Below, one piece after another: positions 33,150 to 37,520 of a stretch of DNA of 64,000 nucleotides (within the stretch, counting starts at the first letter, position 1; every line of letters starts with the position of its first letter). The stretch is from sequence record OQ223305.1; one strand, given 5' to 3'. Position numbers and translations under genes: made by a program. The notes beneath the pieces are model-generated. The model was not told the DNA's origin. It did not search any database and saw only the letters and a list, made by a program, of their open reading frames with translations. Source of the stretch: Escherichia phage EO1.

Positions 33150-34178
33150 ATGTCATCAATACCTTGGATTGATAATGAGTTTGCATACCGTGCATTGGCT
33201 CATTTACCTAAATTCGCACAAGTAAATAATAGTTCAACTTTTAAATTACGGTTTAGATGTCCTGTTTGTGGAGATTCAAAAACCGACCAAAATAAAGCCC
33301 GTGGATGGTATTATGGCGATAATAATGAAGGAAATATTCATTGTTATAATTGCAACTATCATGCACCAATCGGAATATATTTAAAGGAGTTTGAACCCGA
33401 TTTATATCGTGAGTATATCTTTGAAATAAGAAAAGAAAAAGGTAAAAGTCGTCCAGTAGAAAAACCTAAAGAACTTCCTAAACAACCTGAGAAGAAAATA
33501 ATTAAATCTCTTCCGTCATGTATTAGATTAGATAAACTGGCGGAAGACCATCCAATTATAAAATATGTAAAAGCTCGTTGTATTCCAAAGGATAAATGGA
33601 AATATCTTTGGTTTACAACCGAATGGCCTAAATTAGTTAATAGCATAGCACCGGGAACATACAAAAAGGAAATTTCTGAGCCTCGTCTTGTTATTCCAAT
33701 TTATAATGCTAATGGAAAAGCTGAGTCTTTTCAAGGACGTGCATTAAAGAAAGATGCTCCTCAAAAATATATCACCATTAAAGCTTATCCTGAGGCAACA
33801 AAAATTTACGGTGTTGAACGAGTTAAAGATGGCGATGTATATGTTCTAGAAGGACCTATAGATTCACTTTTTATTGAAAATGGTATAGCTATTACGGGTG
33901 GTCAATTAGACCTAGAAGTTGTTCCATTTAAAGATAGGCGTGTGTGGGTCTTAGATAATGAACCTCGTCATCCTGACACTATTAAGCGAATGACTAAATT
34001 AGTTGATGCAGGAGAAAGGGTTATGTTTTGGGATAAATCTCCCTGGAAATCAAAAGATGTTAATGATATGATTAGAAAGGAAGGTGCAACCCCTGAACAA
34101 ATTATGGAATATATGAAAAATAATATTGCCCAGGGATTGATGGCTAAAATGCGGCTATCTAAATATGCTAAGATTTAA
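33150..34178 (+). CDS. 61: DNA primase gp61 (342 aa)
   Basis: 342 aa; N-terminal zinc-binding cysteines (CPVCGDS...CYNC) and TOPRIM region. Confidence 0.9.
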   Translation: MSSIPWIDNEFAYRALAHLPKFAQVNNSSTFKLRFRCPVCGDSKTDQNKARGWYYGDNNEGNIHCYNCNYHAPIGIYLKEFEPDLYREYIFEIRKEKGKSRPVEKPKELPKQPEKKIIKSLPSCIRLDKLAEDHPIIKYVKARCIPKDKWKYLWFTTEWPKLVNSIAPGTYKKEISEPRLVIPIYNANGKAESFQGRALKKDAPQKYITIKAYPEATKIYGVERVKDGDVYVLEGPIDSLFIENGIAITGGQLDLEVVPFKDRRVWVLDNEPRHPDTIKRMTKLVDAGERVMFWDKSPWKSKDVNDMIRKEGATPEQIMEYMKNNIAQGLMAKMRLSKYAKI

Positions 34179-34375
34179 ATTAACCCAACTAAAGCAAATG
34201 CTAAATCTACAAATGTATCAAGAGTAACTACTGGAATATTAATACCATGCGCAATTGCAACAGGTGATAGAATAAAGTTCCAGAGTAAAATTCCTACCAT
34301 AGCAGAAATAGTAAAAGCTATACGTTTTTTATTACCTTTTATGGCATTAACAAGTGCCATTAATTTTTGTACCAT
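34175..34375 (-). CDS. hypothetical small membrane protein on the opposite strand (66 aa)
   Basis: Minus-strand ORF with strong SD (GGAGG, 4 nt spacer) and T4-like codon usage; two hydrophobic segments; stop overlaps the gene 61 stop. Confidence 0.4.
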   Translation of the reverse strand: MVQKLMALVNAIKGNKKRIAFTISAMVGILLWNFILSPVAIAHGINIPVVTLDTFVDLAFALVGLI

Positions 34376-34448: not shown

Positions 34449-34967
34449 ATGCCACATTTCAACGAATGTAGTCAACTGATCGAAGGCGCTGATAAAGCTC
34501 AAAATGAATATTGGGATATTCTCGGTGATGAAAAAGACCCGCTGCAGGTAATGCTTGACATGCAGAAATCTCTGCAAATTCGTTTAGCTAAAGATAAACC
34601 TGAATATAATCGTCATCCTGATGACTTGGCTACTGCCGGTGAAGTTGTTGATTGGTTGCGTAATCAGAAAGATTATATTGACGATGAATTCCGTGAACTT
34701 CTGACTTCTCTTGGTGGTATGAGTAATGGTGAAAAAGACGCATCTGCTGTATGGAAACCTTGGAAGTCGCAGCATGGTGAGCGTCGTGAAACTCTGATTA
34801 CTGATTTGTCTCCGCAAGACCAGTTAGAAATTAAATTTGAAATGATTGATATTCTTCATTTCGTTCTGAATATGTTCCAGGGTCTTGGTCTTACAGCTGA
34901 AGAAATCTTTAAACTTTATTACCTGAAAAATGCTGAAAATTTCGCACGTCAGGACCGAGGTTATTAA
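34449..34967 (+). CDS. 56: dCTPase/dUTPase gp56 (MazG-like), 172 aa
   Basis: 172 aa; position after 61 and a MotA-box promoter upstream. Confidence 0.7.
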   Translation: MPHFNECSQLIEGADKAQNEYWDILGDEKDPLQVMLDMQKSLQIRLAKDKPEYNRHPDDLATAGEVVDWLRNQKDYIDDEFRELLTSLGGMSNGEKDASAVWKPWKSQHGERRETLITDLSPQDQLEIKFEMIDILHFVLNMFQGLGLTAEEIFKLYYLKNAENFARQDRGY

Positions 34968-35107
34968 TGTCTCGTTTAAATAAACGTCAACTCAAAAAGT
35001 TGAATAAGAAAAGGGCGAAAGCCCTTACTGCTTTATTACGTAATGAAATAACTAAAGAAATAGACCAAGAGATTATTGAACAACTCTGGAAAGCCGCTAA
35101 ATTGTAA
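34967..35107 (+). CDS. hypothetical basic peptide (46 aa); may be non-coding
   Basis: ORF overlapping the gp56 stop; contains GGGCGAAAGCCC hairpin at 35013-35024. Confidence 0.25.
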   Translation: MSRLNKRQLKKLNKKRAKALTALLRNEITKEIDQEIIEQLWKAAKL

Positions 35108-35385: not shown

Positions 35386-35393
35386 TAATTCAA

Positions 35394-35417
35394 GGACTCC
35401 CTAGGGAGTCCTTTTTT
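35394..35417 (+). terminator. rho-independent terminator after soc
   Basis: GGACTCCCTAGGGAGTCC 35394-35411 followed by TTTTTT. Confidence 0.85.
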
Positions 35418-35483
35418 CATTTTACCGGTTTACTTTCCAAAATGAGTATGGTATAATAAAATTATCTTATAGAGGAGAGCACT

Positions 35484-35690
35484 ATGTTAAATCGTTGGAT
35501 TAAACCAAATGAAGATTTAGATATTATCATTTCACGACATGTAATGAAGAAATATGAACTGCAGCCATGGTCCACAGAAGTTGTTGTGCATTCATTTATG
35601 ATGTACGCAGATGGTTCTGTCGAATTTAATGCAGAGATTCGATATGATTATGGCGAGAAGCAAGTTGAATTCAAGAGAGGTTTTTTGTAG
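35484..35690 (+). CDS. hypothetical protein (68 aa)
   Basis: ORF after GGAGAG SD. Confidence 0.4.
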   Translation: MLNRWIKPNEDLDIIISRHVMKKYELQPWSTEVVVHSFMMYADGSVEFNAEIRYDYGEKQVEFKRGFL

Positions 35691-36022
35691 TGTTTATCTT
35701 TAATTGGTTTAAAAGTTTCTTTACGGATTTTTTCTCTACGACTCCTGGGGAAGGTGTAGTTCCTATTTCAAATGACTACCTTCCTTTAACTGTAGTTGAG
35801 TATGTTTATATGGGAGATGGAACAGTAGAAGCAGTTACTATGACTTATGAAGAAGCCCAAGAATATTATAAAAATCCTTGGCGATGGTCAGTACCTACAT
35901 CTTCTAACGAAGTTAAAAGTTCTAATTCTTCATATGATACAAATGTTCCTGTTCACGTATGGGCAAGTGATTCATGCGGAAGTTCTTGTGATTCTAGTTG
36001 TTCATCTACATCTTGTGATTGA
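35690..36022 (+). CDS. hypothetical protein with Cys/Ser-rich C-terminal tail (110 aa)
   Basis: GTG start overlapping the upstream stop; C-terminus [18 protein letters not shown]. Confidence 0.35.
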
Positions 36023-36030
36023 GGAAAATT

Positions 36031-36516
36031 ATGGAAGCAATTTTGTTTGAAATGTTTATTAATAGTATTAGTATGGCGTTTGTCAAGGATGTTCCAATTA
36101 CTGTAGCAGTAATGATTGACAAAAGATATGACAATAGCATGTATCTAGTAGAAGATTTTATTTCAATGCCAGTTCCAGAAGATGTTGAAATAAAACTTAA
36201 AAAGATCGGAATTATTGAAACTGTACAAAATTCTCCATTTACGTCAATTCAAGCATTTACTAAATCTAACTATATTGATGTTGGTGAAGCATTTTATAAC
36301 AATAAACCGCTGTCCTTCTATTCATATGATTCAGTACATGACTGGAAAATAGATAAGGGAAATAAATTCATAATTGCGGAAGAAATTGCGCTATCATATT
36401 TTATTACTTCTTTATGGAATAAATTAACTCCAAATTTGCTAAAAATTCATAAATTTGACGATGCTCCTACTATTGTTTTAGGTAAAATGAATGAAAGTCC
36501 TAAAGAAAATATTTGA
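36031..36516 (+). CDS. hypothetical protein (161 aa)
   Basis: ATG 36031 after GAGGAAAATT. Confidence 0.45.
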
Positions 36517-36694
36517 ATGGTTTAATCGACCAAACTCAATGTATATTGATGATGGCTGGGTTGAACAAGCAAATAAAGAAATGCAGAATGAATCAGAAGA
36601 GTGGATGAAATCTATGATTAAAGCTGAGCAAGAAAAGAAATTAGAGCGCTCAGCGCTTAAATTGATGAGAGACATCTATGGTGATAAATCATGA
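36491..36694 (+). CDS. hypothetical protein (67 aa)
   Basis: ORF overlapping the previous one; Glu/Lys-rich. Confidence 0.35.
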
Positions 36695-36855
36695 CCAAAG
36701 ATATGACGTTAGAAGAGGCTAAAGCTAAAGCAAATGAAGCCTTAGATTTGCTTCTTAAAATCGGTAGTAAAATGATGGAAGAAAATGAGAAGTATATCCA
36801 GGAAAATAAAATTCCTGACGGTCCATTAGTAGGCAAAAGGAAATCACATGATTGA
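36691..36855 (+). CDS. hypothetical protein (54 aa)
   Basis: Short ORF, ATGA overlap with the upstream gene. Confidence 0.3.
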
Positions 36856-37318
36856 AGTAGCAAAATTATATTCAATAGAATTTATGTCTAAAGAAGGTAA
36901 ATCAGTAAATACACTTGATAAAAAGTGCTCATTAATTATTCCTTTAGCAGAAAATCCAGATATTTTAATTAAAAATATAAAAGAAAGAAAATATCCAGAA
37001 AATGTTATTCTAATTATAAAGCATACTGAAGATATTTTGCAGAATACAGATTCACCATTTTCTTCTTCTGAAGCTTTAACTATTAAAGGCTATAAAAGAG
37101 CTCATGAATATGGTCTTTTTGACATGTTTGAAGACGATAAAGTTAAATTAGCGAGTCAACCTTCTAAAAGTAAAACATTCATTATTGAAGATATTAAAGA
37201 TATAAATGCATTTGTTAGGATGGTCTGGGCTCATTTTGATGTTGGACTACGCTGGAGAATGTCCGAAGAAGAAAGAAAGATCATTGAAACTAATCGTAAA
37301 TTTGGTTTTTATCGCTAG
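36848..37318 (+). CDS. hypothetical protein (156 aa)
   Basis: ORF after AAAGGAAATCAC. Confidence 0.45.
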
Positions 37319-37326
37319 GAATTAAT

Positions 37327-37509
37327 ATGGATTTATTTGAGATGTTAGAAGATAATCATTCTACGAATATCCAGAATGATTCTAGTGATTATAAAAAAGA
37401 GTACCGTATAGTATTACAGAATTATGGAATTGAAGCCCCAGATGCTCTTCTAGAAGAACTAGCTTCATACCATCTTGACCCTCCGCCTTGGGCTCCCTGG
37501 GCAAAATAA
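37327..37509 (+). CDS. hypothetical acidic protein (60 aa)
   Basis: ORF; C-terminus PPPWAPWAK. Confidence 0.35.
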   Translation: MDLFEMLEDNHSTNIQNDSSDYKKEYRIVLQNYGIEAPDALLEELASYHLDPPPWAPWAK

Positions 37510-37520
37510 TTCAAAAAGTT

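What the first reader, a model, noticed from the sequence alone, without database searches (positions are those of the whole stretch)
35690..36022. ORF with a Cys/Ser-rich C-terminal tail
The 110-aa ORF ends in [18 protein letters not shown], six cysteines regularly spaced among serines. The tail could bind metal or be a substrate for modification. No neighbouring modification enzyme is evident, so this is only a weak lead.
Basis: seen in the sequence. Interest (0 to 1): 0.3.

Follow-up and report, generated by a model that had tools for sequence, protein, structure and literature searches.

The report
T4 Mrh.1 orthologue, conserved Cys tail
The ORF is the already catalogued but uncharacterised early gene mrh.1 of a T4-like Shigella phage; its serine/cysteine tail has four cysteines rather than six, is conserved across T-even phages, and has no known function, while the gene is dispensable in the laboratory.

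Summary
The window is Shigella phage Sf23 (Tequatrovirus). ORF 35690-36022 is Sf23 gp148, the orthologue of T4 Mrh.1 (Pfam DUF7206, PHROG 2031, function unknown). The tail string is exactly as reported but holds four cysteines (C96, C100, C104, C109; C-x3-C-x3-C-x4-C), not six.

The tail is real and selected. Among 15 Tequatrovirus genes its dN/dS is 0.08, against 0.06 for the folded core and 0.33 for the linker. Homologues from at least 8 Tevenvirinae genera all end in a Ser/Gly/Asp/Tyr-rich tail with a penultimate Cys, a terminal Asp or Glu, and a second Cys 4-8 residues upstream. The codons differ between genera. Only these two Cys are universal. Tequatroviruses carry Cys where other genera have Tyr or Ser.

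AlphaFold2 predicts a small beta-hairpin core and a disordered tail. In T4 the transcript is early, the protein is nearly invisible to tryptic mass spectrometry, and transposon mapping calls the gene non-essential. No peptide-maturation enzyme is annotated in the window, and no RiPP or metal-motif family matches.

My best guess, at low confidence, is a flexible thiol-bearing arm that binds a metal or cycles between dithiol and disulfide in an early accessory protein. This is a catalogued gene with a previously undescribed motif and modest interest.

The parts
35392..35421 (+). Intrinsic terminator after soc (9-bp stem, T-run)
   Evidence: Terminator scan. The same hairpin is present in T4.
35429..35457 (+). 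Early sigma-70 promoter of the mrh.2-mrh.1-mrh-srh transcription unit (TTTACT-17-TATAAT with an extended -10 TG)
   Evidence: Promoter scan, 10 of 12 matches. The T4 record M30001 annotates 'early promoter 14.95' at the homologous place.
35484..35690 (+). mrh.2 (68 aa, PHROG 1873, unknown function). Its TAG stop overlaps the mrh.1 GTG start by 1 nt.
35674..35680 (+). Shine-Dalgarno-like AGAGAGG, 9 nt upstream of the GTG start of mrh.1
   Evidence: Read directly from the sequence.
35690..36022 (+). mrh.1 orthologue (Sf23 gp148), 110 aa, Pfam DUF7206, PHROG 2031
   Evidence: Pfam scores 92 bits against a cutoff of 25.6 and covers residues 3-110 of the protein (profile positions 1-107 of 107).
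35690..35731 (+). N-terminal aromatic, amphipathic helix (aa 1-14, [14 protein letters not shown]). The family motif is M-phi-x-W/F-L/F-K-x-L/F-F.
   Evidence: AF2 helix at residues 4-14. Hydrophobic moment 0.43-0.79 in Tevenvirinae members and no transmembrane-grade hydrophobicity. K8 is invariant.
35741..35767 (+). Conserved TPGEGVVPI motif (aa 18-26)
   Evidence: P19, G22, V24 and P25 are invariant across genera.
35789..35869 (+). Folded core: a beta-hairpin around the invariant EY.Y.GDG..E.V, followed by a short helix (aa 34-60)
   Evidence: AF2 strands at 34-40 and 46-52 and helix at 53-60, pLDDT 70-74. The same hairpin appears in the second model. Invariant columns are listed. dN/dS for residues 1-67 is 0.06.
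35891..35962 (+). Variable Ser/Thr/Asn-rich linker (aa 68-91), predicted disordered, tolerant of indels, and the site of module insertion in mosaic variants
   Evidence: pLDDT below 50. dN/dS 0.33 with indels. The 164-aa mosaic form is in Sf24.
35963..36019 (+). C-terminal tail [19 protein letters not shown] (aa 92-110). Cys codons lie at 35975-35977, 35987-35989, 35999-36001 and 36014-36016. The stop codon is 36020-36022.
   Evidence: One search gives the sequence. dN/dS is 0.08, with 5 synonymous-only and 0 non-synonymous columns from D94 to D110. The cross-genus rule of a penultimate Cys followed by a terminal acid is shown.
36021..36516 (+). Downstream mrh (Mrh transcription modulator, PF24070). 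Its GAGG ribosome-binding site overlaps the mrh.1 stop codon, and its ATG is at 36031.

Best explanation
Shown: the ORF is the Sf23 orthologue of bacteriophage T4 Mrh.1 (Pfam DUF7206). It is a small accessory gene transcribed from an early promoter together with mrh.2, mrh and srh, and it is translationally coupled to mrh.2. The predicted protein has a short N-terminal amphipathic helix, a small beta-hairpin core (EY.YMGDG..EEV), a variable disordered linker and a disordered C-terminal tail. Across T-even phages the tail is built from units of a serine run, then Tyr or Cys, then Asp. It always ends ...S-C-(D/E)-COOH, with a second Cys 4-8 residues upstream. In Tequatrovirus two further positions carry Cys where other genera have Tyr or Ser, which gives the four cysteines seen here. 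The tail is under purifying selection as strong as that on the folded core. Inferred, with low confidence: the tail works as a flexible, solvent-exposed, thiol-bearing arm. The favoured version is that the Cys thiolates and neighbouring Asp carboxylates chelate a metal ion such as Zn2+ or Fe. This could occur within one chain in the four-Cys Tequatrovirus form, or between two chains or with a partner protein in the two-Cys forms. The arm would then tether or titrate a host or phage partner during early takeover. A reversible dithiol/disulfide arm is the close alternative. It is not a RiPP precursor.
For: Identity: the window matches Sf23 at 100% and the ORF is gp148, 'similar to T4 Mrh.1'. DUF7206 matches residues 3-110 of the protein at E = 4.5e-26, and the T4 Mrh.1 tail is identical. 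Expression: an early promoter lies upstream, a ribosome-binding site and a 1-nt stop/start overlap link it to mrh.2, and the T4 transcript is classed 'early' (PMC9697503 Table S2). Selection: tail dN/dS is 0.08 against 0.33 for the linker, with 5 synonymous-only and 0 non-synonymous columns from D94 to D110. Eleven of the last 17 residues are invariant across divergent members. The penultimate Cys plus terminal D/E and a second Cys 4-8 residues upstream (gap 4-8) occur in every intact member from at least 8 named genera and in further metagenomic lineages, with different Ser, Cys and Asp codons. Importance of thiols: Cys makes up only 1.35% of the window's ORF residues. The two Cys never vary within Tevenvirinae. 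Extra Cys have appeared in Tequatrovirus (two more) and in the possible relatives P0035 (4 Cys) and P0034 (5 Cys). A flexible rather than folded site is suggested by pLDDT below 50 in two AF2 models and by the variable Gly/Ser spacer.
Against: No experiment or structure supports metal binding or redox activity. Only two Cys are universal, and the other two Tequatrovirus Cys align with Tyr or Ser elsewhere, so a conserved Cys4 site is excluded. There are no C-x-x-C knuckles. A possible distant relative (L028) has the same Ser-Tyr-Asp repeat tail with no Cys at all, although its homology is uncertain (hhalign probability 56%). The gene is non-essential, with no conditional phenotype in T4 or Bas37 transposon screens (10.1101/2025.11.20.689424). 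The protein was not detected in the T4 proteome. That absence is weak evidence, because its tryptic peptides are 8, 53, 4 and 48 aa long.
Confidence: 0.35

Rival explanations
1. The tail is a Ser/Tyr/Asp low-complexity module whose function does not depend on thiol chemistry. It could be an interaction tail, or a pseudo-substrate or acceptor for a modifying enzyme (phosphorylation, or ADP-ribosylation of Ser, Tyr, Cys or Asp).
For: Tyr, Cys and Ser interchange at aligned positions between genera. The repeat grammar holds across the family: Ser precedes Tyr/Cys/Trp in 63 of 79 cases, and Asp or Glu follows in 43 of 80. The L028 protein has a Cys-free tail of the same grammar. The gene lies in the same early cluster as the ModA and ModB ADP-ribosyltransferases. 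In two metagenomic phage contigs a look-alike gene lies about 1.1 kb (L027) to 1.4 kb (L028) from a WGR-PARP enzyme.
Against: Within Tevenvirinae the two terminal Cys are never replaced by Tyr or Ser in any intact member examined. ModA and ModB are arginine-specific enzymes (established knowledge), and the tail has no Arg. The link to ADP-ribosyltransferases rests on one syntenic block plus one uncertain lineage. The resemblance to BY-kinase tyrosine clusters is loose when tested, and the window's tail has no Tyr.
Confidence: 0.25
2. The tail is a redox-active C-terminal dithiol swing arm, analogous to the C-x4-C tail of class Ia ribonucleotide reductase R1 or the C-terminal Cys pairs of some thioredoxin reductases. 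It would be reduced by, or would trap, host or phage thioredoxin or glutaredoxin, acting as a redox decoy or sensor.
For: Two conserved Cys are separated by 4-8 small residues in a disordered tail next to the C-terminus. The phage encodes its own thiol carriers, NrdC thioredoxin and NrdH glutaredoxin. The analogy to RNR R1 and TrxR tails is from established knowledge and was not tested here.
Against: No redox enzyme domain is attached. No sequence similarity to those tails was demonstrated. Disulfides are disfavoured in the reducing cytoplasm. There is no phenotype.
Confidence: 0.15
3. The ORF is a ribosomally synthesised peptide precursor whose Cys/Ser-rich C-terminus is the core for thioether, thiazoline or similar modification, as in lanthipeptides, SCIFF/ranthipeptides or methanobactin.
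For: The C-terminus is rich in Cys and Ser/Thr. The phage encodes one radical-SAM protein, NrdG.
Against: NrdG is the dedicated activase of NrdD and lies about 26 kb away. No cyclodehydratase, LanB/C/M or SPASM maturase is annotated in the 64-kb window. NCBIfam, which I recall (not checked here) includes curated RiPP precursor models, gives no hit. The protein has a conserved folded N-terminal part, and its distribution is restricted to lytic T-even phages.
Confidence: 0.03
4. The tail is a chance low-complexity ending of a dispensable or untranslated ORF and has no function.
For: Composition alone is only marginally unusual (P about 0.12 anywhere in the window). The gene is non-essential. The protein was not seen in proteomics. 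A frameshifted variant that loses the tail exists (P0006).
Against: dN/dS is 0.08 in frame. The tail is conserved at the protein level with divergent codons in at least 8 genera and about 770 phage records. It is retained in mosaic variants that have a 50-aa insertion. The failure to detect the protein by mass spectrometry is explained by its peptide lengths.
Confidence: 0.03

Closest known systems
Bacteriophage T4 Mrh.1 (UniProt P20706; Pfam PF23836 DUF7206; PHROG 2031)
   Same: It is an orthologue: 88% identity over aa 1-92, an identical tail apart from one flanking residue (AGDSC... against ASDSC...), the same soc-mrh.2-mrh.1-mrh synteny, and the same early promoter.
   Different: Sf23 uses a GTG start where T4 uses ATG, and its linker is 3 aa shorter. 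The family has no assigned function.
Redox-active C-terminal dithiol tails (E. coli NrdA C754/C759; the C-x4-C-G tail of Plasmodium thioredoxin reductase), recalled from established knowledge
   Same: Two Cys are separated by a few small residues on a flexible tail within 1-2 residues of the C-terminus.
   Different: Those tails belong to large redox enzymes and shuttle electrons to an active site. Mrh.1 has no enzyme domain. The spacer length varies from 4 to 8. No similarity was shown by any tool.
Cysteine metal sites (zinc ribbons and fingers, metallothionein, intermolecular zinc hooks or clasps)
   Same: Clustered Cys flanked by acidic residues. The four-Cys Tequatrovirus form could in principle form a Cys4 site, and the two-Cys forms could contribute half of an intermolecular site.
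   Different: There are no C-x-x-C knuckles and no predicted fold around the Cys. Only two Cys are conserved. Neither Pfam nor NCBIfam reports a metal-binding family.
RiPP precursor peptides (lanthipeptides, SCIFF/ranthipeptides, methanobactin MbnA)
   Same: A Cys- and Ser/Thr-rich C-terminal stretch.
   Different: No maturase is annotated in the window, there is no match to curated precursor families, the protein has a conserved structured N-terminal part, and it occurs in a lytic-phage early operon.
C-terminal tyrosine clusters of BY-kinases (E. coli Wzc, Etk)
   Same: In genera other than Tequatrovirus the tail carries 2-4 Tyr among Ser, Gly and Asp at the extreme C-terminus. The neighbouring gene mrh has been linked to sigma-32 phosphorylation (RB51 annotation; PMC8076793).
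   Different: Wzc and Etk tails have 6-7 Tyr in about 16 residues, no Cys, and are not Ser-dominated. The window's tail has no Tyr.

Membership tests
T4 Mrh.1 / Pfam DUF7206 (PF23836) | Match to the family HMM above Pfam's gathering score, over the full length | tested here: met
   92 bits against a cutoff of 25.6, E = 4.5e-26, residues 3-110 on profile positions 1-107 of 107. PHROG 2031 matches at E = 3.9e-35.
T4 Mrh.1 / Pfam DUF7206 (PF23836) | Orthologous position: after soc and mrh.2, and before mrh/srh, in the early cluster of a Tevenvirinae genome | tested here: met
   Sf23, T4, T2, T6, RB51 and IME08 annotations.
T4 Mrh.1 / Pfam DUF7206 (PF23836) | Family hallmarks derived here: the EY.Y.GDG hairpin, and a tail ending in a penultimate Cys followed by Asp or Glu | tested here: met
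RiPP precursor peptide | A cognate maturase (radical-SAM/SPASM, YcaO, LanB/C/M, MbnBC) encoded nearby or elsewhere in the genome | tested here: not met
   Annotation of the whole 64-kb window shows only NrdG, the activase of NrdD. The remaining roughly 100 kb of the Sf23 genome was not inspected. T4 is not known to encode such enzymes (established knowledge).
RiPP precursor peptide | Match to a curated precursor family | tested here: not met
   NCBIfam and Pfam return no such hit for this protein or five relatives.
RiPP precursor peptide | Post-translational modification of the core peptide | not testable with these tools
   This needs mass spectrometry of the protein from infected cells.
Cys4 zinc finger or zinc ribbon | Four conserved metal-ligand residues, usually as two C-x-x-C (or C-x-x-H) knuckles on a folded scaffold | tested here: not met
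   Spacing is C-x3-C-x3-C-x4-C. Only two Cys are conserved across genera. The tail is predicted disordered.
Metal-binding tail (generic) | Stoichiometric metal binding by the tail | not testable with these tools
   This requires purified protein with ICP-MS or spectroscopy.
Redox-active C-terminal dithiol arm | Two conserved Cys on a flexible segment next to the C-terminus | tested here: met
   This is a sequence-level feature only.
Redox-active C-terminal dithiol arm | Thiol-disulfide exchange with a thioredoxin or glutaredoxin, or with an enzyme active site | not testable with these tools
   No biochemical data exist, and no redox domain is present in the protein.
BY-kinase-type C-terminal tyrosine cluster | A dense run of Tyr (at least 5 in about 15 residues) at the C-terminus | tested here: not met
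   The window's tail has 0 Tyr and other genera have 2-4. The Wzc and Etk tails were fetched and compared.

The most novel reading that the evidence does not exclude
The (Ser)n-[Tyr/Cys]-Asp repeat tail with its invariant ...S-C-D/E-COOH ending could be a new kind of phage effector module. It would be a disordered, multi-nucleophile decoy arm that is covalently modified or oxidised during infection, or that captures a host factor through its thiols. Examples would be an acceptor or sink for ADP-ribosylation by the co-clustered transferases, or a trap for host thioredoxin, glutaredoxin or metal pools. T-even phages would use it in early takeover under conditions not sampled in laboratory screens.
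Probability: 0.1. Interest if true: 0.6.

Novelty: already known. Interest (0 to 1): 0.27.

Why it matters
[quoted passage not shown] Mrh.1 is one of them, and it sits in the early operon that also encodes Mrh, Srh, ModA and ModB. This analysis gives a precise, testable handle on it: two invariant cysteines, one always penultimate, followed by a terminal acidic residue. That motif is selected as strongly as the folded core and is kept through recombination and across genera. The analysis also explains why proteomics has missed the protein and shows that the RiPP idea can be dropped. If the tail proved to be a covalent acceptor, a redox trap or a metal trap, it would add a new type of small host-takeover effector. 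As things stand it is a descriptive refinement of a known gene of unknown function, with no phenotype.

Tried and rejected
- Structure by sequence. A profile search of PDB sequences found nothing up to E = 10. Foldseek of the AF2 model against PDB gave no match better than E = 0.5, and the model is mostly low-confidence.
- Deep homology. A profile search of 1.84 billion representative proteins gave only 13 hits, all T-even-type Mrh.1 fragments or homologues plus spurious KEYVYKG-repeat proteins.
- Tail as a portable module. A tail-only profile against 5.8 billion proteins recovered only DUF7206 members and two metagenomic oddities at marginal E-values. There is no evidence that the tail is a module on other protein families.
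- Metagenomic look-alikes. Homology of P0035 and the L028 protein to Mrh.1 could not be established (hhalign probability 56%, N-terminus only). The neighbouring PARP enzyme is therefore only a lead.
- BY-kinase tyrosine-cluster mimicry. E. coli Wzc and Etk C-termini were fetched and compared, and the resemblance is loose.
- Membrane protein. No segment reaches transmembrane-grade hydrophobicity.
- DNA or RNA explanations for the conservation. There is no tandem repeat and no Rfam family, and codons differ between genera.
- RiPP precursor and Cys4 zinc finger. Both were rejected in the membership tests.
- Literature. Searches for 'mrh.1' and 'DUF7206' found no paper on the protein. The T4 structural-genomics paper covers Mrh but not Mrh.1.
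- Apparent tail-less natural variant. L050 lacks the tail, but its neighbouring gene is fragmented too, so sequencing error or a pseudogene is likely.

Full report
**1. What is there.**
The window is 100% identical to Shigella phage Sf23 (Tequatrovirus; NC_054941.1 / MF158046.1), in reverse-complement orientation. ORF 35690-36022 (+ strand, GTG start, 110 aa) is Sf23 gp148, annotated 'similar to phage T4 Mrh.1'.
- It matches Pfam DUF7206 over residues 3-110 of the protein (92 bits, cutoff 25.6, E = 4.5e-26) and PHROG 2031, which has no known function.
- The T4 protein (P20706, 113 aa) has the same tail.
- The neighbours are the classical T4 early host-takeover cluster: gp61 primase, gp56 dCTPase, soc, mrh.2, mrh.1, mrh, srh, modA.4, modA.3, modA.2, modB, modA.

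**2. Observation check.**
The tail reads ...[20 protein letters not shown] exactly as reported. It contains four cysteines (C96, C100, C104, C109; C-x3-C-x3-C-x4-C), not six, and these are the only Cys in the protein.
- Composition alone is only marginally unusual. Shuffles give P about 0.12 for such a cluster anywhere in the window's + strand ORFs, and P about 0.015 for one at a C-terminus.
- There is no tandem DNA repeat and no Rfam element.

**3. The gene is expressed as part of an early operon.**
- A terminator after soc lies at 35392-35413. It is followed by a strong sigma-70 promoter at 35429-35457 (TTTACT-17-TATAAT with an extended -10 TG). The T4 record annotates 'early promoter 14.95' at the homologous place.
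- The mrh.1 start overlaps the mrh.2 stop by one base: TAGTG in Sf23 and TAATG in T4. An AGAGAGG ribosome-binding site lies 9 nt upstream.
- In T4 the transcript is classed 'early' and the protein 'NA', meaning not detected (PMC9697503 Table S2).
- That absence says little. T4 Mrh.1 gives tryptic peptides of 8, 53, 4 and 48 aa, so it is almost invisible to standard shotgun proteomics.
- In-frame purifying selection, described next, is the main evidence for translation.

**4. The tail is conserved and selected.**
Within Tequatrovirus I compared 15 distinct genes, including T4, T2, T6 and RB51.

| Region | dN/dS |
|---|---|
| Residues 1-67 (N-terminal helix and folded core) | 0.06 |
| Linker (also carries indels) | 0.33 |
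| Last 19 residues | 0.08 |

- From D94 to D110 there are five synonymous-only columns and no non-synonymous one.
- Among 14 cluster members and the representatives, the only tail substitution seen is S103G.
- A 164-aa mosaic allele (Sf24, and P0003 from Escherichia phage 235Ecol030PP; KRT47 gives the same split two-piece match, its protein not translated) carries a 50-aa insertion of a Dhakavirus-type middle module and still keeps the tail.

Beyond the genus, tblastn with divergent members finds about 770 phage records, all T-even-type phages of Enterobacterales. I translated the gene from several genera and from further metagenomic types:

| Lineage | Tail |
|---|---|
| Dhakavirus, Gaprivervirus | WTGDSSYSSYDSGSCDSSSSSCD |
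| Mosigvirus | WPGDSGSSYSDCGSSSGSCE |
| Moonvirus | SGDSYDSGSYSSCDSSSPGGCD |
| Winklervirus | GGSYDSGSCDSGGGSCD |
| Kanagawavirus | GGYDPGYSSCDSGSSGGSCD |
| An unclassified Klebsiella phage | SSYDSGSSYSSCDSGSVSCD |

- Every intact member ends with a penultimate Cys followed by Asp (Glu in Mosigvirus).
- Every intact member has a second Cys 4-8 residues upstream (gap of 4-8 between the two), usually followed by Asp.
- The codons for these Ser, Cys and Asp residues differ between genera (TCN/AGY, TGT/TGC, GAT/GAC), so the constraint acts on the protein.
- Only these two Cys are universal. The two extra Tequatrovirus Cys align with Tyr or Ser elsewhere, which is a single transition (TAT to TGT).
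- The tail follows a repeat grammar of a serine run, then Tyr/Cys, then Asp/Glu. Ser precedes Tyr/Cys/Trp in 63 of 79 cases, and an acid follows in 43 of 80.

**5. Architecture.**
Two AlphaFold2 runs, one for the window protein and one for a divergent non-Tequatrovirus homologue (P0029, metagenomic; Gaprivervirus-like tail), agree.
- There is a short N-terminal amphipathic helix.
- There is a beta-hairpin around the invariant EY.YxGDG..E.V, with pLDDT about 70.
- The middle part is variable, and the tail has low confidence (pLDDT below 50), indicating disorder.
- No segment is hydrophobic enough to span a membrane.
- There is no PDB relative by sequence or by fold.

**6. Function: what is known.**
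Nothing has been published on Mrh.1 itself. The T4 structural-genomics survey covers Mrh but not Mrh.1.
- Transposon mapping (HIDEN-SEQ preprint 10.1101/2025.11.20.689424, Extended Data Table 6) finds all 31 TA sites of T4 mrh.1 disrupted and classifies the gene as non-essential.
- The conditional comparisons that could be retrieved for T4 and for the Bas37 orthologue show no significant effect (adjusted p = 1).
- A T4 Δ(39-56)12 deletion mutant is used in published infection experiments (PMC6071114); from T4 genetics (my knowledge, not checked here) this deletion spans the region holding mrh.1.

**7. Function: inference.**
- The only radical-SAM protein annotated in the window is NrdG, the activase of NrdD. 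It lies about 26 kb away. No cyclodehydratase or lanthipeptide-type enzyme is annotated in the window.
- Curated precursor and metal-peptide families do not match.

A conserved Cys4 metal site is also excluded, because only two Cys are universal. What the data favour is a flexible arm whose chemistry depends on two thiols placed at a fixed distance from the free C-terminus and flanked by carboxylates.
- I rank metal chelation first. In two-Cys forms this might be intermolecular, and in the four-Cys Tequatrovirus form it could be self-sufficient.
- A reversible dithiol/disulfide arm comes second. The phage encodes NrdC thioredoxin and NrdH glutaredoxin, and the analogy to RNR R1 and TrxR tails comes from general knowledge and is untested.
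- A serious rival is that the Ser/Tyr/Asp repeat is what matters, as an interaction or acceptor module, and that Cys is incidental.
  - For this rival: Tyr, Cys and Ser interchange, and a possible distant relative (L028) has the same repeat tail without any Cys.
  - Also for it: that protein and P0035 sit next to a WGR-PARP ADP-ribosyltransferase, while Mrh.1 sits in the ModA/ModB cluster.
  - Against it: the homology of those proteins is unproven (hhalign probability 56%, N-terminus only), and the two terminal Cys are strictly invariant within Tevenvirinae.
- The BY-kinase tyrosine-cluster resemblance was tested against E. coli Wzc and Etk and is loose.

**8. Verdict.**
The ORF is a known, catalogued gene of unknown function (T4 mrh.1, DUF7206). 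Its tail is truly conserved and selected, and its defining rule (two Cys, one penultimate, with a terminal acid) was not found described in the searchable literature. There is no phenotype and no biochemical evidence, so the mechanism remains a low-confidence inference. Interest is modest.

Noticed in passing
window 35688-35692 (mrh.2 stop / mrh.1 start): One A-to-G difference from T4 (TAATG to TAGTG) changes the mrh.2 stop from TAA to TAG and the mrh.1 start from ATG to GTG at the same time. In the 97%-identical phage Sa45lw the gene is annotated from an internal Met as a 70-aa protein (P0004). This probably happened because the non-ATG start was missed.
   Followed up: partly
L010:1007-1501 (Shigella phage Sf24); P0003: A mosaic 164-aa Mrh.1 allele has a T4-type N-terminal half, a 50-aa Dhakavirus-type middle module (MEEIIRQPEKAGNVG...AVSSW), and then the four-Cys T4-type tail. 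This is evidence of inter-genus recombination inside this small gene.
   Followed up: partly
window 36031-36516 and 36848-37318: Mrh and ModA.3 are paralogues. Both match PF24070 T4_MRH at about 1e-38, and they sit about 330 bp apart in the same early operon.
   Followed up: no
public records matching window 36690-37510: Many GenBank phage records label T4 modA.2, modA.3 and modA.4 homologues as 'molybdenum ABC transporter periplasmic molybdenum-binding protein'. This is an annotation error propagated from the shared gene name ModA.
   Followed up: no
window 34175-34375 (- strand) and 34967-35107: Between primase gp61 and soc, Sf23 lacks T4's dam and segF. Instead it has a 66-aa opposite-strand ORF (gp153, predicted membrane protein) and a 46-aa ORF (gp151).
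   Followed up: no
L027:500-3310 and L028:2157-5408 (metagenomic phage contigs): A conserved block contains a WGR+PARP-type ADP-ribosyltransferase, an unknown protein, an 82-aa lipoprotein, a small protein with N-terminus MFGWFKKKK and a Ser/Tyr/Asp(/Cys) repeat tail, and then SSB and a weak (sub-threshold) VWA match. A DUF1559-type pseudopilin nearby hints at a Planctomycetota-like host. The L028 protein also has a glycine-zipper-like hydrophobic middle.
   Followed up: partly
P0006 (141 aa, from a 175-kb contig); L050:1045-1269; L007: Frameshifted or truncated mrh.1 alleles that lose the tail occur in a few assemblies. In L050 the neighbouring gene is fragmented too, so these may be sequencing errors rather than natural loss.
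   Followed up: partly
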